Both the position numbers and the translations under genes were made by a program. The notes beneath the pieces are model-generated. The model did no database searches. It saw only the letters and a program-made list of their open reading frames with translations, and was not told where the DNA came from. This document shows, piece after piece, positions 1,611 to 36,009 of a stretch of DNA of 64,000 nucleotides. Within the stretch, counting starts at the first letter, position 1. Each line of letters starts with the position of its first letter. Source of the stretch: a virus (Duplodnaviria; Caudoviricetes); the IMG/VR virus record IMGVR_UViG_3300024270_000002. The stretch is one strand, 5' to 3'.

Positions 1611-1755
1611 CGGGATGTGGCTCAGTTTGGCTAGAGCACGTGATTTGGTCGGAATGATGTTAAGTAGCATACATTATAAATGAAGTGTGGGTTCAAATCC
1701 CATTTTCGGCACCAGGATCACGGGGTCGCAGGTTCGAATCCTGTCATCCCGACCA
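1611..1755 (+). tRNA. tRNA-Pro(TGG), interrupted in the anticodon (exon 1 1611-1647, exon 2 1715-1755)
   Basis: Joined exons give a canonical tRNA-Pro: CGGGATG/CATCCCG, CGTGA-TTTG^GGA-TCACG, A73-CCA. Confidence 0.88.
1648..1714 (+). ncRNA. 67-nt mini-tRNA inserted in the tRNA-Pro anticodon (tRNA-like intron)
   Basis: GTCGGAA/TTTCGGC-A-CCA; D arm ATGT/GCAT; stunted CATT-ATA-AATG arm; T arm GTGGG-TTCAAAT-CCCAT. Confidence 0.85.
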
Positions 1756-5412: not shown

Positions 5413-5488
5413 GCTCGGTTAGTCAAGTTGGTCAAGACGCGGGCCCTTCAAGCCTGAGGCAGGAGTTCGAACCTCCTACCGAGTACCA
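5413..5488 (+). tRNA. tRNA-Glu(TTC)
   Basis: GCTCGGT/ACCGAGT, CGGGC-CCTTCAA-GCCTG (C33), CCA. Confidence 0.85.
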
Positions 5489-5491
5489 TAT

Positions 5492-5549
5492 AGAGCCAAT
5501 GCTTATTTCTAACGTAAATTTTGGGAATTTAAAAGTAGTAGCTTGGCCA
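5492..5549 (+). ncRNA. Small RNA family, copy 1 (see 7203-7544)
   Basis: GCCAA-T-GCT-TATTTCT...AGC-TTGGC-CA. Confidence 0.55.
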
Positions 5550-5589
5550 AATTAAAAATTTAAAAAATATATTGTATAATATATTATAC

Positions 5590-6471
5590 GGGCCTGACCG
5601 ATAACTTCCCGTAAGGGAATGAAAGAGGTAAACTGACAAGACCTCGCTGTGATGAGCAGTACCTCAGGCAATGTGTGACGGGACCTGTAAGAATTGAAAA
5701 GATTCTTACGAATATGCTAACCCCATGTTCTAACTTATCAATGATGAAATGAAAAGAGTTTAGTTGAGGGTCAACTGACTGAACTATTCTCGCTCTCGCA
5801 AGGAGCTGGCTTCAACGCAAAAGGATTTGATGAGGTAAGGTAAGCTACAGGAAGTAAAATAGTTCGAGTTTAGCAAGCAAGGGCGACTTCCATTTATATC
5901 TGCTACGGTGGGTATAAGAAATATGAGTACAATGCGACGGAAAGTATTGAAGGCGGGTAGCATTCTTGCACTCAAAAGGTGTGAGAACTACGACAATAGT
6001 CTGTCTTCTGTCAATCTCAACTTAGCGTGGGTTGGAATCCCACCCCGGGTGCCAATTTGATTTTAACACCTCGGGATAGTTCGCACCTATCCCTTATATA
6101 CCCGGGTAGCTCAGTGCTAGAGCGGTTGTCATAGGAAAACAATGTCATGAGTAAAAATCTATTGTTAGAAACAGAGAAAAGTGTCTTAAGCCCACAGCTG
6201 GTAAGGCAATGTGGGATATAAGGTGTCACAAGCATCTTGTATTTGATTGAAATGAATCTATAGGGGTGTAGCAACCTCGAACAGCCCGCAAGGTTGATAG
6301 TGGAATGATAATCGAGTAGCTGTTTCTGTAAAGGCGTAAGCAAGCCTGGAGCCCTTGTGCTGGGGTGACGAATTGCAGGCATGAGCGGTACTTCCCAAAA
6401 GGAAGTGGAAAAGTGACTAAAAAATAAGGTCATTAAGTCGTAGCAACTGAAAGATATATTCTCAGTCTTTT
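5590..6471 (+). ncRNA. Large ROOL-like structured RNA containing a permuted tRNA domain (6018-6128)
   Basis: ORF-free unit from promoter to hairpin plus T run; long-range pair CTACGAC(5988)/GTCGTAG(6437); segments CTCAAAAGG, GAAAACAATG, ACTAAAAAATAAGGT recalled as ROOL-like (not verified). Confidence 0.55.
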
Positions 6472-6913: not shown

Positions 6914-6990
6914 ATTTTACATAAGTTAATTAAAAAAATAAAATAAATATTGTATAATATAATATAAAATTTATTTAGTAGATACTTAAA

Positions 6991-7182
6991 ATGACTCAGT
7001 TTCAATTTGATTTAATTTGTAAGATTATTGAAAACGGAGCACCTGCTCTTGCAAATGAGCTTTGTAATTCGCTTGATGCTTTGGTTAAAGCCTATACTGA
7101 GTGTATGACTGAAAATGAGCAGTTGAAGGCAAAGCTTAATGATAACTCTGAACAGAGTGGCACAGCAGAAACTGTAAAGTAA
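6991..7182 (+). CDS. Hypothetical small coiled-coil protein
   Basis: ORF downstream of an extended -10 promoter. Confidence 0.6.
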   Translation: MTQFQFDLICKIIENGAPALANELCNSLDALVKAYTECMTENEQLKAKLNDNSEQSGTAETVK

Positions 7183-7202: not shown

Positions 7203-7544
7203 AGAGCTTGTACTTATTTCTTTTTACTGGATAATAGAAATTAAAAAAGCAGTCAAGCCAATTACGCAAAACTTTTTGAGCCTATACTTATTTCTTTTAA
7301 AATTATGGGATATTTTACAGTAGTTAGGCCAAAGTTATTTGCTAAATTTAATATAGAGCTCATACTTATTTCTTAGCAATACATACAGTCCTGGACGTAT
7401 GGGCCAGGAATCAAATAAAATAGTTGAGCCACATATTTTAAATAGAACCTATGCTTATTTCTTAGAAAAAAGTAATGCGCCGGCGTTGCTGATAAGAGAA
7501 ACCTTATTACTTCCGCTGGCTTAAAGATAGTGTTAGCTAGGTCA
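7203..7544 (+). ncRNA. Tandem array of four small RNAs with a conserved bulged terminal stem
   Basis: Copies 7203-7260, 7278-7331, 7355-7431, 7444-7544; covarying stems and invariant TATTTCT. Confidence 0.6.
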
Positions 7545-7551
7545 AATATAT

Positions 7552-7628
7552 TGCCGAGTAGAGCAGCCTGGTAGCTCGTTAGCCTCATAAGCTAAAGGTC
7601 GTTGGTTCAAATCCAACCTCTGGCACCC
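7552..7628 (+). tRNA. tRNA-Met(CAT), atypical (initiator-type D arm, bulged acceptor, no encoded CCA)
   Basis: GAGC-AGCCTGGTA-GCTC, TTAGC-CTCATAA-GCTAA, GTTGG-TTCAAAT-CCAAC. Confidence 0.75.
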
Positions 7629-7703
7629 GCTGGCGTGGCTCAACGGTAGAGCTACTCACTTGTAATGAGTAGGTTGGGGGTTCGATTCCCTTCGCCAGCT
7701 CCA
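7629..7703 (+). tRNA. tRNA-Thr(TGT)
   Basis: GCTGGCG/CGCCAGC, ACTCA-CTTGTAA-TGAGT, CCA. Confidence 0.9.
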
Positions 7704-7794
7704 GAAATTATGAAGAAAGCTATTCATTTTTGAGTAACTTTCTTTTTTTTATTGTATATTATAATAGTAATTAATAACGTAAAGGAGAATTATT

Positions 7795-8355
7795 TTGAAT
7801 ACTACTATTACAGAAATCAAAGCAGCCTATGAGCATACTAAGGCAGGAATGTTTTTATTCAATATGTGTGCCGCTTGGACAATGTTTCTCGTGAAACATC
7901 GTAAGCTGTATTATATACTTGCCTGTACTTGGGGTATTATTATGACAGTTGCAGGGGTACTCGTATCAGGTTTACTTCAAGCAGTAAAGTTATTTGCAAA
8001 GGATAAGATTAAAATTACTTTTAAACCTTATCATTGGATCTATAGTATATCTGTTGGTCCTGATTATTGGGGAGGTTTTGAATGTGGGCTTTGCTTTCTT
8101 CGTGATCAGAAGTCTACTGGCTCTCTTAATGCTCATGAATTTGGACACACTTTCCAGAATTGCTTATTCGGTCCGCTATTTTTGTTTATTGTTGCCATTC
8201 CGTCGGCGACTTGGTATTGGTCTAGAGAGCTTTCAGAAGCTAATACTAAAAAGCCGTATGATTCTATGTGGTTTGAGGACGCTGCAACACAGTGCGGCTT
8301 GTACGTAATTAGAACTTTAAATGCTAAAGAGCTTGCTAAGATAGCGGAGGCTTAA
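7795..8355 (+). CDS. Membrane protein with HExxH motif
   Basis: Hydrophobic segments, AHEFGH, WFE; SD AAGGAG. Confidence 0.65.
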   Translation: MNTTITEIKAAYEHTKAGMFLFNMCAAWTMFLVKHRKLYYILACTWGIIMTVAGVLVSGLLQAVKLFAKDKIKITFKPYHWIYSISVGPDYWGGFECGLCFLRDQKSTGSLNAHEFGHTFQNCLFGPLFLFIVAIPSATWYWSRELSEANTKKPYDSMWFEDAATQCGLYVIRTLNAKELAKIAEA

Positions 8356-16971: not shown

Positions 16972-17509
16972 TACTGGAATGATTATTGGCAGATTTCAAC
17001 CGTTCCATTTAGGACATTCTATTATCCTTGACAAAGCGCTAGACCAATGCAATAAAGTAATTGTGGTAATTGGTTCTGCTCAAGAAAGTGGAACACCTTT
17101 AAACCCATTGTCTGCATCTGAAAGAGAACAAATTATTATAGATAGTTTTACGAATAGACTTGATTATGATAATCTTGAAAAAATTGAATTCCTGCATCTT
17201 AACGATAGAGAACATTGGTGCAATGATTCTTCTTTTGGAGAATATGTTATAAATGCAATCGAGCATACATACGGAGTAACACCTAGCGTAGTATTTGAAG
17301 GAAAAGAATCTTCTCGTAATAGCTGGTTTGATACTATCGATATTGATGTAGTTCAGATATCAAGAAATAAATGTGCAGTATCTGGTACTGAATTAAGAGA
17401 GGCTATTTATAATGGAGATAGAACTACCTGGGAAAATCAATGTGCTCCTGGAATTGAATATTGTTTTGATAGTATAAGGGAGGCGATATTAAATGCTACA
17501 AAAAACTAA
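16958..17509 (+). CDS. nadM: NadM-type (Na)MN adenylyltransferase
   Basis: GRFQPFHLGH, GSAQ, NPL...ER, SGTELR. Confidence 0.8.
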   Translation: MIMYNTGMIIGRFQPFHLGHSIILDKALDQCNKVIVVIGSAQESGTPLNPLSASEREQIIIDSFTNRLDYDNLEKIEFLHLNDREHWCNDSSFGEYVINAIEHTYGVTPSVVFEGKESSRNSWFDTIDIDVVQISRNKCAVSGTELREAIYNGDRTTWENQCAPGIEYCFDSIREAILNATKN

Positions 17510-18245
17510 AGAGCTAATTACTTGGATTAGAGAACAGTTTAAAGATATTCCTGATGGTCATGCCATTATCGGTATTTCAGGCGGTAAGGACTCTACTATC
17601 GCTGCAGCGCTTTGTGTTGAGGCCTTGGGCGCTGATAGAGTAATCGGAGTATTAATGCCACAAGGCGTACAAAAAGATATTAGTGATTCTTATGAAGTTG
17701 TTGCAACTCTTAAGCTTCAGTATCATGTTGTTAATATTGGAGCTGCCTGTGAAGAATTATATCGTTCTATTAGCGATGCTGTTTTTCTTTGTGGCGGTAA
17801 AAATGCAATAGAATCTAATTCTATGATTACGACAAATGCTCCGGCAAGAATGCGTATGACTGCTTTGTACGCTATTGCAGCACTTTATACTAATTCCCGT
17901 GTGGTAAATACCTGCAACGCATCCGAAGATTATGTTGGTTATTCCACTAAGTATGGCGATGCAGCTGGGGACTTTTCGCCTCTCGGTAATCTTACTGTGA
18001 GAGAGGTGCTTAAAATTGGGGATGATTTAGGCCTTCCTAAGCATTTAGTGCATAAGCCGCCTTCTGACGGTATGTGCGGTAAAACAGACGAAGATAATCT
18101 TGGATTTACTTATGAACAGCTTGATGACTATCTTTTGGGAACAGGCGATGTTCCGCTGGATGTAGTTGAAAAAATTAAAAAACTGCATAAAGCTACTCGA
18201 CACAAATATGTACTTATGCCAATGTTTAATAATTTTAAAAAGTGA
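17493..18245 (+). CDS. nadE: NH3-dependent NAD+ synthetase
   Basis: GISGGKDS, ARMRM, GYSTKYGD, KPPSDG, TDE. Confidence 0.92.
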   Translation: MLQKTKELITWIREQFKDIPDGHAIIGISGGKDSTIAAALCVEALGADRVIGVLMPQGVQKDISDSYEVVATLKLQYHVVNIGAACEELYRSISDAVFLCGGKNAIESNSMITTNAPARMRMTALYAIAALYTNSRVVNTCNASEDYVGYSTKYGDAAGDFSPLGNLTVREVLKIGDDLGLPKHLVHKPPSDGMCGKTDEDNLGFTYEQLDDYLLGTGDVPLDVVEKIKKLHKATRHKYVLMPMFNNFKK

Positions 18246-19456
18246 GGAAAATAACTATGATGAAGCTTAGTCCTATTATTGTATCTTTGTTGGATACCGA
18301 CCTTTATAAATGGAATATGTGTCAGGTATTCTTTCATAAGCATACCAATATGAATGGTAAGTATATTTTTAAATGTAGAAACGAAGGAGTAGAGTTTACT
18401 TCTGAGATGGTTGAAGAAATCAATGCTCAGATCGACCACCTCTGTACTCTTACGCTGACTGATGAAGAACTTGACTATCTCGCTTCTTTGAGATTTATTA
18501 AGAAGGACTATGTTGAGTTCCTTCGTATTTGGAGACCACTTCGCAGATATGTAAATTGTTTTTATGATGATAGTAGCCCCTGCAAGATGAGAATTGAAAT
18601 CGAAGGGCCACTTTTCTCAGTAATGCAGTTTGAAATTTATCTTCTTGAAATTGTTAATGAGACGTATTTCAGAATGAAGTATGATTATATGCAGCTTGTA
18701 GAGTCAGCTAAAGACAGACTTTATTATAAGACTAATTCTTTTAGGCTGGAAGAATACGATTTTAAATTTGCTGAATTTGGTTGTCGAAGAAGACTTTCCA
18801 GAGAATGGCAGGATTATGTAGTTAGCGAGCTTCTAAAGACCGGCAAGTGCGTAGGCACTTCTAATACGTATCTTGCGATGAAGTATGGTTGTAAACCCAT
18901 TGGAACTTACGCTCATGAGTACGTTCAGATGTTCCAGGGAGTTCCTGGTATTCAGCTTGCGTACACAAATAAGGTTGCAATGGAAGAGTGGTTTGATGAG
19001 TATCAGGGAGATAATGGAACTGCACTTACTGATACTCTCGGAACAGACCTTTTCCTTAGAGACTTTAACAAGCTTCAGGCAATGTGCTATACTGGAGTAA
19101 GACATGATAGCGGAGATCCTTATGAGTGGGGAGAAAAAATTATCGCTCATTATGAGAAGCTTGGAATTGACCCCAAAACAAAGACTCTTCTTTTTAGTGA
19201 TAGCCTTGATTTTGTAAGGGCTCAGGCCATCTATGATTATTTCAACAAAAGAATTAATGTAAGCTTTGGTATTGGAACTTATCTTTCAAATGACACTAAT
19301 GTAAATCCTCTTAATATTGTTATTAAGCTTCAATATGTAAATGGTCACCCCGTCGCAAAGATTTCTGATAATCCCGGAAAGGCTATGTGCCAAGATGACT
19401 CCTATCTCGCATATTTGAAAAACGCAGTTGATTATAGATTAAAGGAAGGTATTTAA
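18242..19456 (+). CDS. pncB: Nicotinate phosphoribosyltransferase
   Basis: LLDTDLYK, EFGCRRR, GTSN, GTYAHE, RHDSGDP, FSDSLD, KISD. Confidence 0.92.
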   Translation: MRKITMMKLSPIIVSLLDTDLYKWNMCQVFFHKHTNMNGKYIFKCRNEGVEFTSEMVEEINAQIDHLCTLTLTDEELDYLASLRFIKKDYVEFLRIWRPLRRYVNCFYDDSSPCKMRIEIEGPLFSVMQFEIYLLEIVNETYFRMKYDYMQLVESAKDRLYYKTNSFRLEEYDFKFAEFGCRRRLSREWQDYVVSELLKTGKCVGTSNTYLAMKYGCKPIGTYAHEYVQMFQGVPGIQLAYTNKVAMEEWFDEYQGDNGTALTDTLGTDLFLRDFNKLQAMCYTGVRHDSGDPYEWGEKIIAHYEKLGIDPKTKTLLFSDSLDFVRAQAIYDYFNKRINVSFGIGTYLSNDTNVNPLNIVIKLQYVNGHPVAKISDNPGKAMCQDDSYLAYLKNAVDYRLKEGI

Positions 19457-23984: not shown

Positions 23985-24794
23985 ATGAAAGGCAATTATA
24001 TTATGGCAAATAAAAAAGATTCGCTCGGCGATAGAATGAAAGATAATTATGAAAATAGAGCTAAGACTTATCTTACCAGAAGGCTTCCTGTGGTGATCCG
24101 AATCGACGGCAAATGTTTTCATTCATTTTGTAAGAACTTTCAGAAACCTTATGACGAGGTTTTTCATAAGGCAATGAACTCTACCTTGCAGTATCTTTGT
24201 AAAAACATTCAGGGATGTAAGTTCGGATACACCCAGAGCGACGAAATTTCGCTTCTGTTGACTGATTACGATACACTGACTACAGATGCCTTTTTTGATT
24301 ACAACGTGCAAAAGATCTGCTCTATTGCGGCTTCTATGGCTACTCTGCACTTTAATAAGGCTTTCAGAACTTATGTTAATGAATATACTGCTGGTAAAAC
24401 TCTTGATAGCTATTCTATTGAGTTACTAAAGGCCAAGGATAAGGGAGCAATGTTTGACGCTCGCTGCTTCAGCATTCCTGCATCGGAAACGTGTAACGTA
24501 TTTATTTGGAGGCAGCAAGATGCGACTCGAAATGCTGTTCAGATGCTCGGGCAGACGTACTTTAGTCACAAGGAACTCCATAAGAAGTCTACTTCAGATA
24601 TCCAGGAAATGTTGTGGCAAAAGGGTATTAATTTCAATGATATGCCTATTGAGTTTAAGCGTGGTGTTTGCTGTTTTAAGAGAGCTATTGAGGTAAGAGG
24701 CGCAGCACGAACTGAGTGGTATATTGATAAAGAATGTCCTATTTTTACACAGGATAGAAATTATATTGAAAGATTTCTTCCCAAGGAGAACTAA
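23985..24794 (+). CDS. Thg1-like tRNA(His) guanylyltransferase / 3'-5' polymerase
   Basis: RIDGKCFH, YTQSDEIS, FDAR, WRQQDATRN. Confidence 0.92.
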   Translation: MKGNYIMANKKDSLGDRMKDNYENRAKTYLTRRLPVVIRIDGKCFHSFCKNFQKPYDEVFHKAMNSTLQYLCKNIQGCKFGYTQSDEISLLLTDYDTLTTDAFFDYNVQKICSIAASMATLHFNKAFRTYVNEYTAGKTLDSYSIELLKAKDKGAMFDARCFSIPASETCNVFIWRQQDATRNAVQMLGQTYFSHKELHKKSTSDIQEMLWQKGINFNDMPIEFKRGVCCFKRAIEVRGAARTEWYIDKECPIFTQDRNYIERFLPKEN

Positions 24795-25354: not shown

Positions 25355-26125
25355 ATGAAGTTATTTTGTGTTTCAGATATACATAGCTTTTATACACCGT
25401 TTAAAAAAGCTTTAGACGACGCTGGTTTTGAAAAAGATAATCCAACTCACTACCTTGTCAGCTGCGGGGATGTGCTAGACCGTGGTAGCGAAAGCGAGGA
25501 AGTGCTCCATTTCCTGATGTCACTTGAAAGAAAGATCCTTGTAAAGGGTAATCACGATCTTCTTCTTGAAGAATGTTGCATGAGAGAATTTCCGTATAGC
25601 TATGATGTATCGAACGGGACTGTAAAAACGATCAATGACATCGGCGGCGCTGGAGAAGGTTATCCTTTTGATAAGTGCTGTGAAAATACTTGGAATAGGA
25701 CCGCCGCGTATCGAGCTTCACTTGTAAATTATTTTGAGACTGAAAATTATATTTTTGTTCATTCGTGGGTGCCTCTTAAATGCTTAGACGACATGCCCAA
25801 GCATTATACTAAGAATAGACAGTTTGAATATGACCCTGAATGGCGTACTGCAGACAGAGATTCTTGGGAGCAAGCTATGTGGGGTAATCCTTTCGAACTT
25901 GCTGAGCGGGGACTTAATCATACAGGCAAAACTATAGTATTCGGACACTTCCATACGAGTTGGCCAAGAGCTAAATATGAGGGGAAGCCCGAGTTTGACG
26001 AGGGTGCGGATTTTTCATCGTATTACGGTGATGGTTATATTGCACTAGATGCTTGCACTGTCCATACCGGAAAAGTTAATGTTTTAGTTATTGAAGATAA
26101 TTTTTTAAATAAGGAAGGTATTTAA
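25355..26125 (+). CDS. Calcineurin-like metallophosphoesterase
   Basis: SDIH, GDVLDRG, GNHD, FGHFH, LDAC. Confidence 0.85.
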   Translation: MKLFCVSDIHSFYTPFKKALDDAGFEKDNPTHYLVSCGDVLDRGSESEEVLHFLMSLERKILVKGNHDLLLEECCMREFPYSYDVSNGTVKTINDIGGAGEGYPFDKCCENTWNRTAAYRASLVNYFETENYIFVHSWVPLKCLDDMPKHYTKNRQFEYDPEWRTADRDSWEQAMWGNPFELAERGLNHTGKTIVFGHFHTSWPRAKYEGKPEFDEGADFSSYYGDGYIALDACTVHTGKVNVLVIEDNFLNKEGI

Positions 26126-28317: not shown

Positions 28318-31300
28318 ATGCTTACAAAAAATGAAATTGCCACCTTAAACTTATCTCCAACTAAAAAAGATTTTGTTCAAATATGGAATGAGCTTTTGGA
28401 AGTTGCAGGTAGGCTATCTGAACGGTGGGACCCGACAAGTACTAACGAGAGTGACCCTGGTATTGTCATATTAAAAGCACTTGCTGGTATTGCTGATAAG
28501 TTAAATTATAATATTGATAAAAACACTCTTGAGGCTTTTATGCCAACAGCAGCACAGGAAGACTCTATGCGCAAGTTATGTGACATGTTGGGCTATAACG
28601 TTAAATACTATAGATCTGCTGAGACTGCTGTTACCATTAGATATTATAATTCAGAACCCTCAGATGATGAAAAGTCAGCCTTAGAGATAGGCCTTGCTAT
28701 TCCAAAATTTACCGCTATTACAAACGGTGATCAAGATATTAATTATTTTACTACTAATCAGACTGACGTCTATATTTCATCAACAACCCCATCTATTACA
28801 CTCAGCTGCATGGAAGGTCAGATTGTTAAATGTGAGAGTACTTCAGATAATAATGTAATTACAGCAAGTCAGATTTCTGAACGTAATAGATTTTATCTGC
28901 CAGAGGCACAAATAGCAGAAAATGGTATATTTGTGTATAACGTAGCATTTGACCAGAAGGACGGTGCCAATTGGGAAAAGGTAGATAATTTAAATATCCA
29001 GAGGCGTGGATCTCGTGTTTTTAAGTTTGGTTACGATTCCTATGAAGGACGTCCTTATATCGAATTTCCAGAAGACTATAGTGAATTAATTAACGATGGT
29101 CTTTTTATATATTATGCTAGAACAAGCGGTGCAAACGGAAACATCTCTGCCAGAACATTATCTCAGCTCGAACCGCCAAGTTCCTGGAGTGGTATATCTG
29201 CTGAGAGCTTTAGTGTTGAGAATGCTTTTGCCGCTACTACTGGAGCCAATCTTGAAACGATTAATCAAGCTTATAACAGTTTTAAGAAAACTATCGGTAC
29301 ATTTGAAACGCTCGTTACATGTAGAGACTATATGAATAAAATCTATACAATGACTGCAGACGATACAGGTAAGCCTTTGGTGTCAAACGTATTAGTTACA
29401 GATATTAGAAATGACTTGAATAGGGCTATTACTATTTGCAGCTGTGATGATGCAGGCATTTTCTATAAAGATACTCCATTGACTGCACCTGTTACAAAGA
29501 CACTTAAAGTCAAAGATGGCAATGTTGTTAAAATGGTGACTGCTGAAGTAGAGGAGCCTGTAATAAATCACTTTGACCTGGTGCTATATCCGTTTAAGGC
29601 CTATAATCAGATTAGGGGCAATGTTACCGATATCCAAGAGGTTTACGATTCTTCTTTTAAGTATAATCCAAAAATGCTAACAGACATAAAAAGTAAGCTA
29701 GATGATTATAAAACAATCGCACACACTATAAAAGAGCCGAGACTTGGTGATGTTATTAGTATAAATAACTATCTTAGACTAAATGCGGTTATAGGTACTA
29801 ATACTAAAATTACAGTAGAAGAAAGAACCTTATTAGTCGATACTATTAAAATTGCTCTTGCTAATGCTTTTAATATGCGTGAGCTTGACTTTGGTGAGGA
29901 AATTCCTTTTGATAGCATTGTAGAAGTTATTGAGAAAGCAGATGCTAGAATTAAGATAGTATCTTTAGCAGAGCCTGCCTTATACACAACATTCTCTGTA
30001 TTAGACGGGTATAATGATAATACTCCAGTAGTTCGTGAGTACGCAGTAGCTTCTGATTGGCTGACCGAAGAGACTGCAGATGCAGTTGGACGGTTTGACT
30101 ATACAGACGGACACACATTTAATACACAAGAAGCAAAGAAGATTTATAATAGACTAGCAGTACGTAATGTGCTTGCCGGTAGAGTACCTTTATTTAAATA
30201 TAACGATACTTTTAAAACTAGCTTTTCTGAAGGCGCATACCGTACCACTAAAAATGTTTTAGAGGATGAGATACCTGAACAGCTACGTACGCCAACTAGC
30301 ACAGAACCATTTACCATTTATACTGATAAGAATGATACTTACACCGGTCAGTTGGTTTCACAAGTAGAAAAACCTGTGAATTTTCCTGACGATGTTTCTA
30401 AGTGGTATGATGATACTGAAAAGGTTTATTATGTTAAACAACCAGGTATTGATCAGCCTGTATACTCTAAGCTCGTTTATACGAAAACATCTGTTCCAAA
30501 AAACTATATTAATAATATAATAGCTAAGACAGACGACGGTAACAATATTACTGAAATTGTAACAAGCTGTGTGATAAATTCCGATAAAGATGCTGCAGGA
30601 GAACCTACATATGAAATCTCAGACGTAACGCTAGCTGCAGGTGAAACAGTAAAATTTAGGGCTCCTAATTTTACTACTGATAGAACATACCCTGCCTATG
30701 TTAACTATCATCTTAAATTGAAAACTGCAACCGCGCGTGTGGCGGAGGCTGCGAAGGCATACACATTATCCAGTTTGCTGAACTCTCAGGTCGATGGTCG
30801 CGGATTGACCCCAGACGAAAGGCGACAGAGAGCGCTTAATTACTTTGCAGCAGCAGGCCATAAGCATACTTTTACACTTACGCAAAAAGTACTGAAGAAA
30901 ACTTCAGATAGTATCGATAAAGAAGATGAGTTTACATTAATAAAAATTGAAAATGACTCAAGTATAATAACTAAAGAAAAACCAGAAGATATCTTAATTA
31001 AGAGTGGTTTTGTAAAACTTACTAACACAAAGCCAACTCTTGCCTGGATAGATGGGCCTAAGAACTCTAAGCCAGATTTGGATATACCTAAACTAGATTT
31101 AGGTGACTCTTTGTTTATTGTAAACGCTGGAGTGTTTACTAATATTAAAACGGAAGTAGACGAGTATATAACTTATTTAAATACAAATTACCCTAATAAG
31201 CTTCCAACAGAGTATGACTGGACGATTTCTTATACTTTTGAATATGTACCATTTGAGGAGGCAACACTATCAGAGTGGAAAAATTTTATCATTTCTAATG

Positions 31301-34300
31301 GTAGACTGCTCTTTGGCTTCTATCCAGTAGTAGAAAGCGAAACGGTGCTGTGGCACGCAACAGCTGGTGGATATAACTTAGGTAAAAATGTACTTTCAAA
31401 TACGGCTAAGTTATTAGCATTCACGCGGGGCGATTTCGGATTCCTAGACTCTTTTACAACTCGCTTATTAGGTGTGTATGTAGCAGAAGACCTTGGAAGC
31501 GATCAAAAAGCTACTAGTATCGCCAATGACGAAGAGTATATGCTACGTAGTGGCGAAAAGCTATTTATCGAGTATACTCCTTCAACTACTACGGAAGATG
31601 GTGCTAGCCAAGACCAAGCCGTAGTCACAGAAGTTTTTGGAGAAGGGACCATAATTAAGCCGAGTGGGTTTGAAAGTAATTTAATAGACTCTTCTGTTTA
31701 TCAACAGGACCACACTCCTCCTAAAAAGGTCAGCTTTACTGATAGTGATAAAGACATACCATTATTCAGCTTGGGGGCAAGCGAGCAAATAGAAATTCGT
31801 GAGCTTGCTAAAGTAACCTTGAATAGAGAAAATCTTCCTAATACACCACAGATTTATGTTTATAAAAACTTTAATAACTGCCCAGAATTAGAAAAGCTTT
31901 CTACAGACGGTAGTAGTTATTCAGGCGGAAAGCGTATAAATAGTTCTTACACTTTAAAAGACGGTGAGTACATTTTTTATACTGACCAAAACATGACAGA
32001 GTTTGCTTATTTTACTTCCGGCACTGAAGTTACCCTTTATGGTTCTACAGTTCTACCACAGTTTGATATCATAGACCTTGCGACTATTTTTGACAACGGT
32101 ATTCAAGAGATTCCTTGGAAATTAATACCGTTAGTAAATGATAATGGTATTAATTTCCAAGAGTATCAGTATGTTACTTTGGGTGAAGGCGATACCCTTA
32201 ATCGCATATTTTTAGCAGGTTTACGTCCATTAAATGAGTCATGGCAAATGTGTGATAAAGTAGAATATACTATGGCTGGAGCGAAGAAAGACGCGCTACC
32301 TAAGATTAATATATTTGATGCTACTAACAGCGGAAATGGCTGGGAAGCATGTAGCGCACTTGAATTAAAGGTATCTCAGGATACTGCACAGACGTTACGT
32401 AAAACGGATAAAATAGAAACTAAGATTGTTCTTAAAGATAGTAATAATGAAACGTTTATGACGCTAGAAGCTGAGAAGGAACATCCGGTATCTTTCAAGA
32501 CAAATCTTCCGTGTCAAACAAGTAGTGGTAAGTTAAACATTTCAGACCTATACACAAACCCAAATAAGCTGAAAAGCTTTGAACTGAAGGTTTTTGCAGA
32601 AGAGACGCCTGCTATAATAAAAACAAAAACTGGTACACTGATACCTTACCAAGATGATACTGCCAAAGACTTAGTAGATGTTGCAAATTGGCCAGTTGAC
32701 CAAACGCTTTCTGTCAATGACTTTGGTACTTTGTGGAAGCCCGTGGCATTATCAAGTCTTACTTTTGCCGAAGATGACCCTTATACTAATGCCTTAAGGC
32801 TATCAGTTAGTACAATACCAAATACTTATGGCATTTTTAGTATTTATCTAGACTACAGAAAAACAGAGCCCTTATATGCTCAGACCTGGATAGAGCTTCT
32901 TCCTGGAGTAGACACGCAAAATGTTGAGCTATTCAATAGTACAGTTAAATGGGAAGATAATAAGCTAATGTTACATTCTGGTATTAACTGTATTCGTGTT
33001 AATAAAACAAGTGATCTCTTTATTAAGACAAAAGCTACTGACGGTGCATTGTATTTTGACAGCATTAGACTTGTAGACTGCCGTCCTGTTGAGTATATAG
33101 AAAATGGTAATAAGGTAGCTAAAGTCACACAGGGACTGAATCTATCTCAAATAGGCTATTTAGATACTTCCGACGATAGTACTTTTAGTGTGTTTGACAG
33201 TCGTATTCGTAAAAAACTGCGTGATGAGCTTACGAATTCCGCCCTTGATAGTTTAGAAGAAAGGGCTAACGAAGAGTCTGCTATCTTTGCAAGTACTTGG
33301 GATGAGTTACTCGTGTCTAAGACGGCTATGCAAGATCTAGTAGACTGTATAACTAGCGCTATCACCGAGATTGAGTTACTTAATACATCTAACGGTACAG
33401 ATACACCTTCCGAAAAAGAAGAAGAGCTCATAGCCATCTTTGATAAATATAAGCAGATTTCGGAAAAACTAGATAAAGAGAAAAACCTAAAAACTGCTTT
33501 AGATAATAATAGTACTGTTGATGAGCTTGAGCGTCAACTAGCAGACCTTGCTAGCAGTCTTACAAATACTGAAACAGAGCGCCAAGACTTGCTGACCAAA
33601 TTGGAGCTTGTAAAAGCGGGCGCAGAAACTAACGCTAATAATTTTTCTAAGGATACTTTGCGTAATGGCGATATTTTAGACGATTTTGTGAATGCCGCTG
33701 ATATTGTATTGCAGCCAAGCCTAGTAGACGATATTAAATTTGCTAGTATGCGTAAAATAAATACTCGTTATGGAGAGCAGCTAGACAGTCTGGCGGCTGA
33801 TATCGAAAATGTTTTAAAATCAGAAGAAGCTTTAAATAATTCGTTAAGTTATTTACACGCGACAAAACATACCGTGTTATTAGAACAAGTCGAGGCACTG
33901 ATAAGCACGTATGAGGCATCTTTGAGCTCGTCTATTAAAGACGTACAGGATCTTGCTATAGGAACAGACAAAGAGGGTGTTATTGTAGTAGACTATACTG
34001 CCTTAGAGTCTGCATTAAATAGCTTAAAAGAGCATATAAGTACTACTGGTATTAGTCTACTAATTGCTAGAATTGAGTCTACTGCAGACAGTAGTTTATA
34101 TACTGAGCTTGCTGAAACGATAGATGCTTTAAAACTTTTACTTGAGGCGCAAGGAACAAATAGTAATATTATAACAGCTATCGATTCTGTAATTACTCTT
34201 GTACAAAATAAAAACAATAGCAAGCCAGATGAGACCATAAAAGGTAATTTGGAGTCTATTAAAGGTGATATTTCTAATTATTATACTGCAAAATTACAAA

Positions 34301-36009
34301 TTGCTTTGGACAGTATAGATAATATACTTTCCTCATTAGAGGATACTTATAAGGGAGCTAAAGACTATCTTGACAATCAAGAGGATGCGCAGATCAAGCT
34401 TATTTTAAGCAGACTTGAGAATATTTCTAACACTGCTACTGCCTGCTTAGACTTGGTGAAGACCTTTGGTGCCGCATCTGATTTTAACATTACGACTGAT
34501 TATGCGTGTTTACCGTTTGGAGAAGATGCCGTCTTGACGACTTGGCCGGTATACATGCGACAGGCGCTAATATCTGGAATTGGGTTACTTTATGAATATA
34601 CTCGAAATGCGGCAAATAGCCGACAAATAGATTTTGAAGCAGCTATTAATGCGTTAGAAAACCGAGCAGTTCTTGCACAAGCTGCCGACCTTAAAGCTTT
34701 TAATACACTATTTAATACTGCAAAAACTTTAGCAGCTCGTATTAGCCAGAATCATTATTATGAACTAGCTATTGCTGATCTTGCAAATCTAATCGTACCA
34801 TCAAGCGAACTAAAAGAGTTACTTGATGCCGAGAACGACTACGTATTAATGCATCTCATCTCCGAGTTTAAAGATACTGCAAATGTTGCAGAGCAGCAAC
34901 GATTAATTACAGAACTTAAGAGTGAGCTCGATAATGTAATTAAGCTAGATACGAAGTTAGCTGAAATAAGCGCAAAATTATTATGCCCTAGTATATTGCT
35001 TGCGGATAGCAATAAAAAATTATCTGAAAATAGTGTGTTCTTTGAAAGATTCTTGAATTACGCTGTTGGCAAAAAGAAGACACTTTTAACGTTGTCTAGT
35101 AACTTTACCATGGAGCTGAATTCACTGACAGCTGAACTTGAAGAAGCTCTTGCGACAACTGGTTCTCTGCTTAATGCAATAAAAGCTGGGGATATAGCTC
35201 AGTTTGACGTTAACAAGTGGGAAAATATTACTACTACAGATGAATCGTCAACTCTACTGTCAGAGTATTATTTAGAAAAGCTAACTAAGCTTAAAGGCAC
35301 TTTAGATATTCAAGAGCTAATAACTAAAATAAAAAATAGTAAGCTCTTTGATTTCTTGAAAAAAAATTTTGTTATTGCTTGGCAAATTTGTGAGATTTAT
35401 GATGAGAAGGTGGACGGCAAGTTAGTTGAGAATACTAGAGAAGTTTGGATAGACGGAGCCGGGGAGTATATAATCCAGAATACTGGCAGTAGCTGGCAAA
35501 CAGTAAATGGCGATATTGTAGAGCTAAGACATTACGCTGATGGTAGATGGACAGATTGCCGCAATGAACAAGAGGTAGAGCTTATCGTTAAATCTGGTGA
35601 TAGCTGGCTAATCGAAGGTAAAGAGGCCTTCTCTGTGACTGATGAAAAGCTAAGTTTGTTGCTAACCGGTACTGACGACAAACCAGGTCTACTTGAACAG
35701 GTAGCGAGCTTGTGCAATAATAGTATTACAAAGTCATTTAAAGATGCTTATAGCATAATAATACTAGAGGAACAGCTTTTAGAGGAACTTAGCGACCTCG
35801 ATAAGAATGGAGATTTTTATTACAGCGTTCCTGTGGAGTCTAACTTTGCTATAGACTTTAATAAAGGTGATTCTACCGCAAATACTTTAATGAACCCTAC
35901 TGTCAATTATGATATCAATAATGTAAATAATAATTTTGTTATTTCAAAAATAGATATTGATTACTTGACAAAAGGACTTCAAATTGCACATTCATCTAGG
36001 CTAAATTAA
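28318..36009 (+). CDS. Giant baseplate wedge protein (gp6/J-like N-terminus), 2563 aa
   Basis: KDF..I..EL, ESDPG, DKLNYNID, LGY, LVT.RDY; position after gp25. Confidence 0.7.
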   Translation: MLTKNEIATLNLSPTKKDFVQIWNELLEVAGRLSERWDPTSTNESDPGIVILKALAGIADKLNYNIDKNTLEAFMPTAAQEDSMRKLCDMLGYNVKYYRSAETAVTIRYYNSEPSDDEKSALEIGLAIPKFTAITNGDQDINYFTTNQTDVYISSTTPSITLSCMEGQIVKCESTSDNNVITASQISERNRFYLPEAQIAENGIFVYNVAFDQKDGANWEKVDNLNIQRRGSRVFKFGYDSYEGRPYIEFPEDYSELINDGLFIYYARTSGANGNISARTLSQLEPPSSWSGISAESFSVENAFAATTGANLETINQAYNSFKKTIGTFETLVTCRDYMNKIYTMTADDTGKPLVSNVLVTDIRNDLNRAITICSCDDAGIFYKDTPLTAPVTKTLKVKDGNVVKMVTAEVEEPVINHFDLVLYPFKAYNQIRGNVTDIQEVYDSSFKYNPKMLTDIKSKLDDYKTIAHTIKEPRLGDVISINNYLRLNAVIGTNTKITVEERTLLVDTIKIALANAFNMRELDFGEEIPFDSIVEVIEKADARIKIVSLAEPALYTTFSVLDGYNDNTPVVREYAVASDWLTEETADAVGRFDYTDGHTFNTQEAKKIYNRLAVRNVLAGRVPLFKYNDTFKTSFSEGAYRTTKNVLEDEIPEQLRTPTSTEPFTIYTDKNDTYTGQLVSQVEKPVNFPDDVSKWYDDTEKVYYVKQPGIDQPVYSKLVYTKTSVPKNYINNIIAKTDDGNNITEIVTSCVINSDKDAAGEPTYEISDVTLAAGETVKFRAPNFTTDRTYPAYVNYHLKLKTATARVAEAAKAYTLSSLLNSQVDGRGLTPDERRQRALNYFAAAGHKHTFTLTQKVLKKTSDSIDKEDEFTLIKIENDSSIITKEKPEDILIKSGFVKLTNTKPTLAWIDGPKNSKPDLDIPKLDLGDSLFIVNAGVFTNIKTEVDEYITYLNTNYPNKLPTEYDWTISYTFEYVPFEEATLSEWKNFIISNGRLLFGFYPVVESETVLWHATAGGYNLGKNVLSNTAKLLAFTRGDFGFLDSFTTRLLGVYVAEDLGSDQKATSIANDEEYMLRSGEKLFIEYTPSTTTEDGASQDQAVVTEVFGEGTIIKPSGFESNLIDSSVYQQDHTPPKKVSFTDSDKDIPLFSLGASEQIEIRELAKVTLNRENLPNTPQIYVYKNFNNCPELEKLSTDGSSYSGGKRINSSYTLKDGEYIFYTDQNMTEFAYFTSGTEVTLYGSTVLPQFDIIDLATIFDNGIQEIPWKLIPLVNDNGINFQEYQYVTLGEGDTLNRIFLAGLRPLNESWQMCDKVEYTMAGAKKDALPKINIFDATNSGNGWEACSALELKVSQDTAQTLRKTDKIETKIVLKDSNNETFMTLEAEKEHPVSFKTNLPCQTSSGKLNISDLYTNPNKLKSFELKVFAEETPAIIKTKTGTLIPYQDDTAKDLVDVANWPVDQTLSVNDFGTLWKPVALSSLTFAEDDPYTNALRLSVSTIPNTYGIFSIYLDYRKTEPLYAQTWIELLPGVDTQNVELFNSTVKWEDNKLMLHSGINCIRVNKTSDLFIKTKATDGALYFDSIRLVDCRPVEYIENGNKVAKVTQGLNLSQIGYLDTSDDSTFSVFDSRIRKKLRDELTNSALDSLEERANEESAIFASTWDELLVSKTAMQDLVDCITSAITEIELLNTSNGTDTPSEKEEELIAIFDKYKQISEKLDKEKNLKTALDNNSTVDELERQLADLASSLTNTETERQDLLTKLELVKAGAETNANNFSKDTLRNGDILDDFVNAADIVLQPSLVDDIKFASMRKINTRYGEQLDSLAADIENVLKSEEALNNSLSYLHATKHTVLLEQVEALISTYEASLSSSIKDVQDLAIGTDKEGVIVVDYTALESALNSLKEHISTTGISLLIARIESTADSSLYTELAETIDALKLLLEAQGTNSNIITAIDSVITLVQNKNNSKPDETIKGNLESIKGDISNYYTAKLQIALDSIDNILSSLEDTYKGAKDYLDNQEDAQIKLILSRLENISNTATACLDLVKTFGAASDFNITTDYACLPFGEDAVLTTWPVYMRQALISGIGLLYEYTRNAANSRQIDFEAAINALENRAVLAQAADLKAFNTLFNTAKTLAARISQNHYYELAIADLANLIVPSSELKELLDAENDYVLMHLISEFKDTANVAEQQRLITELKSELDNVIKLDTKLAEISAKLLCPSILLADSNKKLSENSVFFERFLNYAVGKKKTLLTLSSNFTMELNSLTAELEEALATTGSLLNAIKAGDIAQFDVNKWENITTTDESSTLLSEYYLEKLTKLKGTLDIQELITKIKNSKLFDFLKKNFVIAWQICEIYDEKVDGKLVENTREVWIDGAGEYIIQNTGSSWQTVNGDIVELRHYADGRWTDCRNEQEVELIVKSGDSWLIEGKEAFSVTDEKLSLLLTGTDDKPGLLEQVASLCNNSITKSFKDAYSIIILEEQLLEELSDLDKNGDFYYSVPVESNFAIDFNKGDSTANTLMNPTVNYDINNVNNNFVISKIDIDYLTKGLQIAHSSRLN

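What the first reader, a model, noticed from the sequence alone, without database searches (positions are those of the whole stretch)
7203..7544. Five-copy small-RNA family with a covarying bulged stem, invariant UAUUUCU and swappable pseudoknot cargo
Seen: four tandem copies plus one at 5492-5549 share GA-[5 bp]-bulged T-[RCT]-TATTTCT...[AGY]-[5 bp]-CA. The outer stems covary fully (GCCAA/TTGGC, GCTTG/CAAGC, GCCTA/TAGGC, GCTCA/TGAGC, ACCTA/TAGGT), as do the inner ones (GCT/AGC vs ACT/AGT). The interiors differ in length, and copies 4 and 5 hold H-type pseudoknots (CATAC/GTATG + TCCTGG/CCAGGA; AAGTAAT/ATTACTT + GCCGGCG/CGCTGGC). Inference: a protein-binding handle plus variable module, architecturally like Y RNAs or decoy/antitoxin RNAs, possibly sponging a host defence or RNA-repair protein.
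Basis: partly seen in the sequence, partly recalled or inferred. Interest (0 to 1): 0.72.

Follow-up and report, generated by a model that had tools for sequence, protein, structure and literature searches.

The report
Phage Y-RNA-like handle RNA family
Five small RNA genes in a large gut-type phage's tRNA cluster share one conserved stem "handle" with different inserts; relatives always pair this family with one unstudied protein and use the handle to display tRNA look-alikes, much like bacterial Y RNAs.

Summary
Five copies (5493-5549, 7204-7260, 7278-7331, 7356-7431, 7445-7544, all + strand) fit GA-[5 bp]-U-[RCU]-UAUUUCU-cargo-[AGY]-[5 bp]-C. They lie inside a tRNA array.

The family is widespread. 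I found about 120 distinct members in large uncultured phages and a few gut Firmicutes genomes, with strongly covarying stems and no Rfam match.

Two results shape the reading:
- **Cargo.** In relatives it is often a circularly permuted tRNA look-alike with a capped acceptor stem, or an isolated anticodon arm. This is the build of bacterial Y RNAs (YrlA). Copy 1 here carries a Pro-like arm with loop UUUGGGA.
- **Partner protein.** A conserved ~660-aa protein (alpha-solenoid plus TerD-like domain, no Pfam hit) has a family member just upstream of its gene in 21 of 22 viral loci and about 11 of 13 genome loci.

The family fails YrlA membership: no GNCGAA motif, sub-threshold Rfam scores, and no TROVE/Ro60 gene found in the genomes searched.

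Best reading: a protein-binding handle with swappable tRNA-like modules, a Y-RNA-like RNP, probably acting in tRNA surveillance, repair or decoying. Transcription, binding and function are untested.

Earlier notes of this scan reached the same reading on the neighbouring windows of this same genome.

The parts
5493..5549 (+). Copy 1 (57 nt): handle GA-GCCAA-U-GCU-UAUUUCU ... AGC-UUGGC-CA. The cargo is a 5-bp hairpin UAAAU/AUUUA with the 7-nt loop UUUGGGA, an anticodon-arm look-alike (Pro-UGG type). It lies 4 nt after tRNA-Glu(UUC).
   Evidence: (68.8 bits, E 4e-13)
7204..7260 (+). Copy 2 (57 nt): handle with stem GCUUG/CAAGC and inner ACU/AGU. Part of the 29-nt cargo (AGAAAU) can pair with the UAUUUCU strand.
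   Evidence: 61.1 bits
7278..7331 (+). Copy 3 (54 nt): handle with stem GCCUA/UAGGC. The 26-nt cargo is an A/U hairpin with a UGGGA-containing loop.
   Evidence: 60.4 bits
7356..7431 (+). Copy 4 (76 nt): handle with stem GCUCA/UGAGC. The 48-nt cargo has the hairpin CCUGG-ACGUAUGGG-CCAGG and a possible pseudoknot CAUAC/GUAUG.
   Evidence: 45.5 bits; not in the model's training set
7445..7544 (+). Copy 5 (100 nt): handle with stem ACCUA/UAGGU. The 72-nt cargo has the stem GCCGGCG/CGCUGGC and a possible pseudoknot AAGUAAU/AUUACUU. It lies 7 nt before tRNA-Met.
   Evidence: 46.4 bits; not in the training set
5413..5488 (+). tRNA-Glu(UUC) directly upstream of copy 1. It shows that the elements sit like tRNA genes in the array.
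6930..6958 (+). Promoter-like site (TTAAAA-17-TATAAT) ahead of a 63-aa ORF (6991-7182). The likely transcription unit is this ORF, copies 2-5, tRNA-Met and tRNA-Thr.
   Evidence: consensus match only
7552..7703 (+). tRNA-Met(CAU) and tRNA-Thr(UGU) directly downstream of copy 5. The same order (elements, Met, Thr) is kept in relatives L043, L077/L106, L103 and L070.

Best explanation
The five copies are genes for small structured RNAs of one conserved family. They are embedded in the phage's tRNA gene array and most likely cut out of the tRNA precursor transcripts.

The conserved part is the closing helix: a G-C pair, a bulged A, 5 covarying base pairs, a bulged U, 3 base pairs, and the single-stranded UAUUUCU. 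This is a binding platform ('handle') for a conserved ~660-aa protein with an N-terminal alpha-helical repeat domain and a C-terminal TerD-like beta-sandwich. That protein's gene is almost always preceded by a family member. Earlier notes and synteny with G003 place it about 9 kb upstream of this window.

The interior is an exchangeable module that the RNP displays. In this window the modules are an anticodon-arm look-alike (copy 1) and hairpin or possible pseudoknot modules (copies 2-5). In relatives they include whole, circularly permuted tRNA look-alikes with a capped acceptor stem, and isolated Lys, Pro, Cys and Ser anticodon arms.

This is the logic of Ro60-Y RNA (YrlA) particles: one protein-binding stem plus a tRNA-mimicking effector module. 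Here it uses a different handle and a protein that is not recognisably TROVE.

The likely role, which is inferred, is in the fight over tRNAs during infection. The RNP may present tRNA-like baits to host tRNA-cutting or tRNA-binding factors, or recruit repair enzymes.

Shown: the family, its structure, its place in tRNA arrays, the tRNA-like cargos and the gene linkage. Inferred: transcription and processing, physical binding, and function.
For: - **Structure and family.**
- **Position.** Elements always lie in tRNA arrays, on the tRNA strand, a few to a few tens of nt from the flanking tRNAs in most loci that hold tRNAs (36 loci examined).
- **Permuted tRNA cargo.** Nine long members rotate into canonical tRNAs when broken at about position 29|30. 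They have 5-7 of 7 acceptor pairs, D and T arms, and U33/R37.
- **YrlA resemblance.** Rfam YrlA hits these long members at 24-43 bits, E down to 2e-6. The YrlA order V-T-capped acceptor-D is given in PMC4201824.
- **Anticodon-arm cargo.** 54 of 120 cargos hold such a hairpin (the count includes T arms), against 10.9 in shuffled cargos.
- **Protein linkage.** All 22 viral loci holding the protein have family elements on the same strand, and 21 have one ending 34-154 nt before the start codon. About 11 of 13 genome loci do too, down to 34% protein identity.
- **Cellular loci.** Bacterial-type loci show a minimal element with its own promoter (TTGACA-17-TATAAT in L157) and a terminator made by an outer stem plus a U-run. 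Four of the five bacterial genomes searched gave a single match, at the protein gene (checked by coordinates for G006); G009 gave none, although a regex scan had found an element upstream of its gene.
- **RNA-repair context.** A Pnk-like kinase lies upstream in the close subclade. In G001 an RtcB gene sits in the tRNA array directly behind a family element. This window encodes a Thg1-like enzyme.
- **Precedent.** Thermus phage phiLo Ro60 binds two Yrl RNAs encoded upstream of its gene (PMC12135203).
Against: - There are no expression or binding data, so the protein-RNA link rests on gene adjacency alone.
- The upstream copy could be only a cis-acting leader or attenuator of the protein gene.
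- The window itself does not contain the protein. Its presence in this genome rests on earlier unchecked notes and on synteny with G003.
- One record, G004, has an element but no detectable protein. The element lies 680 nt from the contig end, so this exception is inconclusive.
- Homology of the protein to Ro60 is not supported by sequence (hhalign probability 1%).
- The window's copies 2-5 show no tRNA-like feature under my criteria.
- Some permuted cargos keep an encoded NCCA after the acceptor 3' strand. That would also fit real tRNA precursors.
Confidence: 0.6

Rival explanations
1. The handle is a processing and ligation signal, functionally like the leader-trailer helix of permuted or split tRNA genes. 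It brings together the two ends of a permuted tRNA so that an endonuclease and an RNA ligase can excise it and join the anticodon stem. Ordinary decoding tRNAs result once the acceptor cap is opened. Short copies such as those in this window would be remnants or by-products.
For: - Cargo rotates into canonical tRNAs with a consistent break near 29|30.
- Five of about 18 acceptor caps begin with NCCA, and one cap holds a whole nested element, like an intergenic spacer.
- RNA ligase domains occur in 5 of 5 carrier phage records, and RtcB follows an element in G001.
- This window has Thg1-like and phosphoesterase genes.
Against: - Permuted cargos duplicate anticodons already served by normal tRNA genes in the same locus, for example Thr(UGU) in L086 and Arg(UCU) in L005.
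- Several have non-canonical loops or 3-nt acceptor caps that leave no room for end processing.
- Short, non-tRNA cargos are conserved between phages and make up all five copies here.
- The bacterial-type loci hold a minimal element with no tRNA part, and where a whole-genome search matched it found only that one.
- There is no bulge-helix-bulge, and the distance from handle to tRNA body varies (2-6 nt and 3-8 nt).
- No splicing endonuclease was identified.
Confidence: 0.15
2. The element is mainly a cis-regulatory leader: an autoregulatory binding site or attenuator in front of the TerD-domain protein gene. The extra copies in tRNA arrays would be duplicated sites with little function of their own, or simple titrators of the protein.
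For: - An element ends 34-154 nt upstream of the start codon in 21 of 22 viral loci. In several loci it is followed by, or nested in, a terminator-like hairpin with a U-run just before the ribosome-binding site.
- Four of the five bacterial genomes searched gave only that one match.
Against: - The five copies in this window are not upstream of that gene. Copy 1 is followed by a promoter-like site and GOLLD RNA, and copies 2-5 by tRNA-Met.
- Phages keep 5-9 copies with elaborate conserved cargos, including whole tRNA look-alikes, which a bare regulatory site does not need.
- In some cellular loci the element has its own promoter and terminator, like a separate sRNA gene.
Confidence: 0.1
3. The repeats act at the DNA level or as plain transcription signals: terminators, protein-binding DNA sites, or ends of a small mobile element. 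They would not be functional RNAs.
For: The units are repeated and inverted-repeat-bearing in an AT-rich intergenic setting. Single-sequence folding energies are unremarkable.
Against: - Strict co-orientation with the tRNAs in every locus.
- No U-run follows the stem; the 3' flanks are A-rich.
- The helix is kept by compensatory changes while one strand (UAUUUCU) is invariant and asymmetric.
- Cargos are tRNA-shaped RNAs.
- No transposase-like gene or target-site duplications were seen.
Confidence: 0.03
4. Type III toxin-antitoxin-like antitoxin RNA array (ToxI-like), processed by and inhibiting a toxin endoribonuclease.
For: Several structured units stand in tandem (7204-7544). A PemK/MazF-like gene lies between elements in some relatives (L004:8535-9116).
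Against: - The units differ in length (54-100 nt) and in sequence outside the handle, so they are not near-identical short repeats.
- No Rfam antitoxin match at E<=5.
- No Pfam hit on the adjacent ORFs 6991-7182 and 7795-8355.
- PemK is a type II toxin and is not conserved next to the elements.
Confidence: 0.02

Closest known systems
Bacterial and phage Y RNAs of the YrlA type with Ro60/Rsr (Rfam RF02553; Chen et al. 2014, PMC4201824; Thermus phage phiLo Ro60 with Yrl1/Yrl2, PMC12135203)
   Same: - The 5' and 3' ends pair into a protein-binding stem with a bulge.
- The interior is an effector module. In long relatives it is a tRNA look-alike in the order (V or anticodon hairpin)-T arm-capped acceptor-D arm.
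- The RNA genes lie next to the gene of the presumed protein partner, and several RNAs go with one protein.
- The system occurs in phages and sporadically in bacteria.
- RNA-repair genes lie nearby in some genomes (RtcB, Pnk-like).
   Different: - The handle sequence is GAGCNNN-U-RCU-UAUUUCU, not GNCGAA(N)G.
- Rfam YrlA scores are 24-43 bits for long relatives (threshold 69), and the window's five copies get no hit.
- No TROVE gene was found in 5 phage and 5 bacterial carrier genomes.
- The linked protein has a TerD-like domain where Ro60 has a vWA domain, and shows no sequence-profile similarity to TROVE.
- Many cargos keep a complete, canonical anticodon arm, or are only an anticodon arm.
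- The genes are embedded in tRNA arrays.
Circularly permuted and split tRNA genes (Cyanidioschyzon merolae, some green algae, Thermofilum; split tRNAs of Nanoarchaeum) - from general knowledge and the review PMC3400036
   Same: In relatives the 3' half of a tRNA precedes the 5' half. The acceptor ends are joined by a short spacer, sometimes with an encoded CCA. The outer ends pair with each other.
   Different: - There is no bulge-helix-bulge motif.
- The host domain is bacterial or phage, with no splicing endonuclease identified.
- Most family members, including all five here, hold no tRNA.
- Permuted copies are redundant with normal tRNA genes.
Stable small RNAs co-transcribed with phage tRNA clusters (T4 species 1 and 2 / RNA C and D) - from general knowledge, not tested here
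   Same: Non-tRNA small RNAs lie inside a phage tRNA gene cluster and are presumably matured by the tRNA-processing machinery.
   Different: No sequence or structural relation was tested. The T4 RNAs have no known shared handle or linked protein.

Membership tests
YrlA / bacterial Y RNA (Rfam RF02553) | Score at or above Rfam's gathering threshold (69 bits) | tested here: not met
   No YrlA hit overlaps any of the five copies at E<=5. Long relatives reach only 24-43 bits.
YrlA / bacterial Y RNA (Rfam RF02553) | Rsr-binding motif GNCGAAN0-1G near the 5' end (PMC4201824) | tested here: not met
   The 5' strand is GAGCNNN-U-RCU-UAUUUCU in all copies, and none of the five sequences contains CGAA.
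YrlA / bacterial Y RNA (Rfam RF02553) | 5' and 3' ends form a stem that closes the RNA | tested here: met
   An 8-9 bp bulged helix with covariation.
YrlA / bacterial Y RNA (Rfam RF02553) | tRNA-like module (T arm, capped acceptor stem, D arm) | tested here: not met
   Absent from the five window copies; only copy 1 has an anticodon-arm-like hairpin. Present in long members of the same family in relatives.
YrlA / bacterial Y RNA (Rfam RF02553) | Encoded next to a Ro60/TROVE gene | tested here: not met
   TROVE PF05731 was found in 0 of 5 phage records and 0 of 5 bacterial genomes that carry the system. The neighbour is a different protein.
Ro60/TROVE protein family (for the linked protein) | Sequence or profile similarity to TROVE | tested here: not met
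   No Pfam hit in close or remote members. hhalign against 4 Bacillota Rsr proteins gives probability 1%. That TROVE alignment is small.
Ro60/TROVE protein family (for the linked protein) | HEAT-repeat ring fold | tested here: inconclusive
Type III antitoxin RNA (ToxI-like) | Tandem near-identical short repeats | tested here: not met
   The units are 54-100 nt and are alike only in the handle. No Rfam match.
Type III antitoxin RNA (ToxI-like) | Adjacent toxin endoribonuclease (ToxN-like) | not tested
   No toxin partner was searched for. The adjacent ORFs 6991-7182 and 7795-8355 have no Pfam hit.
Permuted tRNA genes of the archaeal/eukaryal type | Bulge-helix-bulge motif at the paired leader and trailer | tested here: not met
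   The handle has single-base bulges (A and U) and a 5+3 bp helix, with no 3-nt bulge / 4-bp / 3-nt bulge arrangement.
Intrinsic terminator | G+C-rich hairpin followed by a U-run | tested here: not met
   The 3' flanks are A-rich (CAAAU, CAAUU and similar). The terminator scan finds none at the copies.

The most novel reading that the evidence does not exclude
Gut and rumen phages, and a few Firmicutes, carry a previously undescribed ribonucleoprotein system that parallels Ro60-Y RNA but is independent of it or extremely diverged from it. It consists of an alpha-solenoid/TerD-domain protein and a dedicated, expandable family of 'handle' RNAs. These RNAs display interchangeable tRNA parts: whole back-to-front tRNAs, or single Lys, Pro, Cys or Ser anticodon arms. 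They would serve as programmable baits, sensors or repair platforms against tRNA-targeting bacterial immunity.
Probability: 0.4. Interest if true: 0.85.

Novelty: new variant of a known kind. Interest (0 to 1): 0.75.

Why it matters
If the reading holds, this is a second, sequence-unrelated solution to the Y-RNA design: a protein-binding stem plus a tRNA-mimicking module. It would be common in large gut-type phages. The protein has 251 clusters at 50% identity, and I collected about 120 distinct RNAs from a limited sample.

It would give a natural, modular RNA scaffold that presents tRNA bodies or bare anticodon arms. That bears directly on how phages cope with anticodon nucleases and other tRNA-directed defences.

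It would also provide many natural circularly permuted tRNA-like genes in bacterial viruses. My literature searches found no report of these in phages.

It would assign a first function to an abundant protein family with no Pfam domain. The bacterial single-copy version, with one promoter, one minimal RNA and one protein, offers a simple system for experiments.

Tried and rejected
- **Rfam.** Searches at gathering and at E<=5 give no family for the five copies or for the bacterial minimal elements. YrlA appears only weakly, on long relatives.
- **Cultured phages.** blastn of the region against 50,697 phage records matched only tRNAs. tblastn of the protein gave only weak, partial hits covering at most 40% of it, mostly its C-terminal half.
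- **My first reading.** I began with the handle as a ligation or circularisation signal for permuted tRNAs, at 60%. I downgraded it after finding redundancy with normal tRNAs, non-tRNA cargos, the single-copy bacterial form and the protein linkage.
- **ARAGORN junction scan.** Running ARAGORN on rotated cargos with all junction deletions was too permissive to fix the junction. I replaced it with an explicit stem and loop test.
- **TROVE.** Not found in carrier genomes. hhalign of the protein against TROVE is negative. Foldseek against the PDB gives nothing for the N-domain. PDB sequence searches are empty. The ESM Atlas search was uninformative.
- **Pnk-like kinase.** It is not a general neighbour, occurring in only 8 of 35 protein loci.
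- **Upstream sequence of this genome.** Exact-word scans of IMG/VR and JGI metagenomes for the window's first 40 bases found nothing, and no whole genome is held. So I could not see the protein gene of this very genome.
- **Strand argument from G-U pairs.** Too weak to use: only 8 G-U pairs among 960.
- **Pseudoknots in copies 4 and 5.** Only 2-3 homologues each, so they are neither confirmed nor rejected.
Full report
**Setting**

The window is part of a large lytic-type phage genome of an anaerobe community. It carries 18-19 tRNA genes on the + strand between 624 and 7703. It also holds a GOLLD RNA at 5948-6468 (160 bits) and genes for a Thg1-like enzyme, a metallophosphoesterase, NAD salvage enzymes, topoisomerase II, an NrdD-like glycyl-radical enzyme, a DnaB helicase and a family A DNA polymerase. 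No whole genome is held for it. No cultured phage resembles the region beyond its tRNAs.

**The observation**

Five units lie at 5493-5549, 7204-7260, 7278-7331, 7356-7431 and 7445-7544.

- The exact 10-mer RCTTATTTCT occurs five times, only here and only on the + strand. About 0.2 per strand is expected.
- Relaxed scans add no further copy.
- Minimum-free-energy folds recover the bulged helix in all five. The energies are not unusual for the composition (z -0.2 to -1.5), so single-sequence thermodynamics does not carry the case.

**The family beyond the window**

The 5' half of the motif alone, searched in IMG/VR, returned 114 stretches. Many are in contigs of 146-230 kb and hold 2-5 hits each.

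- Scripts then found the matching 3' half for about 100 sites, 75 of them distinct. After the later loci were added there were 120 distinct members, 42-179 nt long, using 34 different 5-nt stems.
- Of 135 unique sites defined by the 5' motif only, 74 have their own perfect complement plus the closing C within 220 nt. With stems swapped between sites the mean is 10.9 and the maximum 17.
- On an alignment of 55 short members, six of nine pairs change on both sides (74 cells; the inner pair alternates A-U, G-C and U-A) and 0 of 500 shuffles reach the score. Those rows had been selected for pairing, so the count leans towards the structure.
- RNAalifold predicts the same helix and leaves UAUUUCU unpaired.
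- A covariance model built from these 55 (R1) finds exactly the five window copies, including copies 4 and 5 that were not in the training set. It also finds all nine copies of the syntenic relative G003, and nothing else in 284 kb.
- In more distant phages the last base of UAUUUCU varies (A, C or G), or the word is UACUUCU. The bulge can be C or A.

**Where the elements sit**

In every locus the elements are co-oriented with tRNA genes. In most loci that hold tRNAs they stand among them like another tRNA gene, a few to a few tens of nt from the neighbours.

In this window copy 1 starts 4 nt after tRNA-Glu, and copy 5 ends 7 nt before tRNA-Met. The order 'elements, tRNA-Met, tRNA-Thr' is kept in several relatives. 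The 3' flanks are A-rich, so these are not terminators.

A promoter-like site at 6930-6958 precedes a 63-aa ORF and then copies 2-5. That is a consensus match only.

**What the cargo is**

This was the informative step. In relatives the long cargos (85-150 nt) are circularly permuted tRNA look-alikes. The order is: anticodon hairpin or 3' strand of the anticodon stem, variable loop, T arm, acceptor 3' strand, a 3-33 nt cap, acceptor 5' strand, U8, D arm, and the first bases of the anticodon stem.

- For nine of them an explicit test gives a canonical tRNA if the chain is broken at about position 29|30. They have 5-7 of 7 acceptor pairs, a 5-bp anticodon stem and a 7-nt loop with U33 and R37. 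The anticodons are Lys, Asn, Thr, Arg and Ser.
- Others have odd loops or 3-nt caps.
- A few cargos are unpermuted tRNAs or lone T arms. One long element holds a short element nested in its acceptor cap.
- Rfam's YrlA model hits these long members at 24-43 bits, with E down to 2e-6. Some hits span the whole model, but all are below the 69-bit threshold.
- The YrlA paper describes just this arrangement: a closing stem that binds Rsr, then V, T, capped acceptor and D (PMC4201824).
- Short and medium cargos are often a bare anticodon-arm look-alike. The loops are UUUGGGA/U (11 times), CUUUUAA (7), CUGCAAA (5) and CUGCUAA.
- Overall, 54 of 120 cargos hold such a hairpin, T arms included, against 10.9 in shuffled cargos.

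In this window copy 1 is of that kind (UAAAU-UUUGGGA-AUUUA). Copies 2-5 are not tRNA-like by my criteria. Copy 4 keeps the hairpin CCUGG-N9-CCAGG in its two homologues. Copy 5 shares only its flanks and one stem with its homologues. At the same array position the relative G003 has different cargos, so cargo really is exchangeable. The proposed pseudoknots are possible but rest on 2-3 sequences.

**The linked protein**

In several relatives a short element lies just upstream of a ~660-aa ORF, and long elements follow it.

- The protein has no Pfam hit, either in close members or in ten remote members.
- It has 557 close relatives at 90% clustering and 251 clusters at 50% identity, almost all 650-720 aa long.
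- The N-terminal 425 residues fold confidently with a diverse alignment into an all-alpha repeat domain (pLDDT 91, pTM 0.81). Its invariant residues include four arginines.
- Searching IMG/VR with the protein gave 22 loci at 41-100% identity. All 22 have family elements on the same strand, and 21 have one ending 34-154 nt before the start codon.
- Searching one genome per prokaryotic species gave 13 loci in gut metagenome-assembled genomes, mostly Clostridia and Christensenellaceae, at 34-70% identity. About 11 have an element in the same place.
- In five bacterial-type loci the element is minimal (cargo 14-20 nt, inner stem UCU/AGA). It is nested in an outer 8-bp stem followed by a U-run and preceded by a good promoter (L157: TTGACA-17-TATAAT). 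It looks like a discrete small RNA gene or a terminator-leader.
- In four of five such genomes R1 gave a single match. For G006 its coordinates are those of the element at the protein gene. G009 gave no match, although the regex scan had found an element upstream of its gene.
- One of these loci lies next to dnaG-rpoD, with a serine recombinase on the other side.
- The protein is rare in cells: only the centre genome matched among 301 sampled genomes of the phylum.

This window has no copy of the protein. It aligns to G003 over 33 kb at 72-95% identity. In G003 the order is: element, protein gene, three elements, 27 tRNAs, four elements, Met, Thr. Earlier notes of this scan place the protein gene 8.9 kb before this window's start, with three more copies around it. 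I could not read that DNA myself.

**Is the protein a Ro60?**

- By sequence, no. TROVE was not found in five phage records (four of them at least 95% complete) or in five bacterial genomes that carry the system, while the controls gave matches. hhalign against four Bacillota Rsr proteins gives a probability of 1%.

The parallel is architectural. Ro60 is a helical-repeat ring plus a metal-binding vWA domain. This protein is helical repeats plus a TerD-like domain, and solved TerD binds calcium (title of PDB 2kxt). Phage Ro60 with Y-like RNAs encoded upstream of its gene has been shown experimentally for phiLo (PMC12135203).

**Context pointing to RNA repair or tRNA conflict**

- A P-loop kinase of the AAA_33/KTI12 type (Pnk-like) lies directly upstream in the close subclade only, in 8 of 35 loci.
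- RNA-ligase domains occur in 5 of 5 carrier phage records.
- In the complete genome G001 an RtcB gene sits inside the tRNA array, 69 nt behind a family element. It is followed by tRNAs and three more elements. This echoes the Salmonella operon of rsr, its Y RNA genes and rtcBA (known from the literature; PMC7790460 turned up but I did not read it).
- This window encodes a Thg1-like enzyme.

**Mechanism proposed**

- Shown: a conserved, covarying RNA helix with an invariant single strand; exchangeable cargos that copy tRNA bodies or anticodon arms; placement in tRNA arrays; tight gene linkage to one protein family.
- Inferred: the RNAs are released from tRNA precursors; the protein binds the handle; the particle displays tRNA-like modules to other factors. 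Candidate factors are host anticodon nucleases as a decoy target, tRNA-binding enzymes, or repair enzymes such as RtcB.

I put 0.6 on the handle-RNP reading. I cannot choose between the decoy, tether and sensor roles.

The main rival, at 0.15, is that the handle serves to process permuted tRNAs into decoding tRNAs. It draws on the canonical features and on the NCCA in five caps. It does not explain the conserved non-tRNA cargos, the redundancy with normal tRNA genes in the same loci, or the bacterial single-copy minimal form. A purely cis-regulatory role (0.1) cannot apply to the five copies here.

**Novelty**

No Rfam family matches. My literature searches found no description of permuted tRNA-like genes, or of this RNA and protein pair, in bacteriophages. 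Absence from an open-access library is weak evidence.

I class it as a new variant of a known kind: the Y-RNA/YrlA design with a different handle and a different, or unrecognisably diverged, protein. The same family on this same genome had already been noted and followed up by other agents of this scan. Their notes moved me from the processing reading to the Y-like reading. I then tested that reading on relatives.

Noticed in passing
window 5948-6468 (probably from about 5590): GOLLD RNA (Rfam RF02032, 160 bits) lies inside the tRNA array, right after copy 1 and a promoter-like site at 5552-5580. A weak YrlA/tRNA-like hit (30 bits) lies inside it at 6001-6151.
   Followed up: no
window 1648-1711: An extra tRNA-like sequence found by Rfam (36 bits) but not by ARAGORN.
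   Followed up: no
window 5566-5587, 6944-6965, 7751-7766: The word TATTGTATAATATA (TATTGTATATTATA in the third) recurs before transcription units. It is probably this phage's promoter type with an extended -10.
   Followed up: partly
window 23985-24794 and 25355-26125: A Thg1-like tRNA 5'-end polymerase (E 3e-33) and a calcineurin-like phosphoesterase. An RNA end-healing toolkit accompanies the tRNA island.
   Followed up: partly
window 17493-19456: NAD synthase and nicotinate phosphoribosyltransferase genes, a phage NAD salvage pair.
   Followed up: no
window 28318-36009: A very long ORF (2563 aa) that I did not examine.
   Followed up: no
L087:10895-11073: A 179-nt family element whose permuted tRNA cargo has an encoded ACCA and a complete 55-nt family element nested in its acceptor cap. 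This looks like a footprint of origin from tandem tRNA genes.
   Followed up: partly
L174 (G001:C1:2913-4088, minus strand): An RtcB RNA ligase gene lies inside a phage tRNA array, 69 nt downstream of a 58-nt family element. It is followed by elements with permuted Thr, unpermuted Arg-tRNA and Ser anticodon-arm cargo.
   Followed up: partly
L004:8535-9116: A PemK/MazF-like toxin domain ORF (E 1e-7) lies between two long family elements in a relative.
   Followed up: no
L053:7108-7182, L074:5499-5594, L087:3606-3680; G003 (reverse strand) 88247-88335: tRNAs with anticodon UCA, or with an odd 4-base anticodon call, occur in related phages. These may be suppressor tRNAs or signs of recoding. A class of permuted cargos keeps the conserved strand UUUCAUU after the anticodon stem.
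   Followed up: no
BFVD hits H6SUA9 (Campylobacter virus IBB35) and A0A291I9M6 (Lactobacillus phage LpeD): Cultured phages may encode distant structural relatives of the linked protein (Foldseek E 1.7e-4 and 7e-3). They could offer a laboratory system. I did not check whether handle RNAs lie beside them.
   Followed up: no
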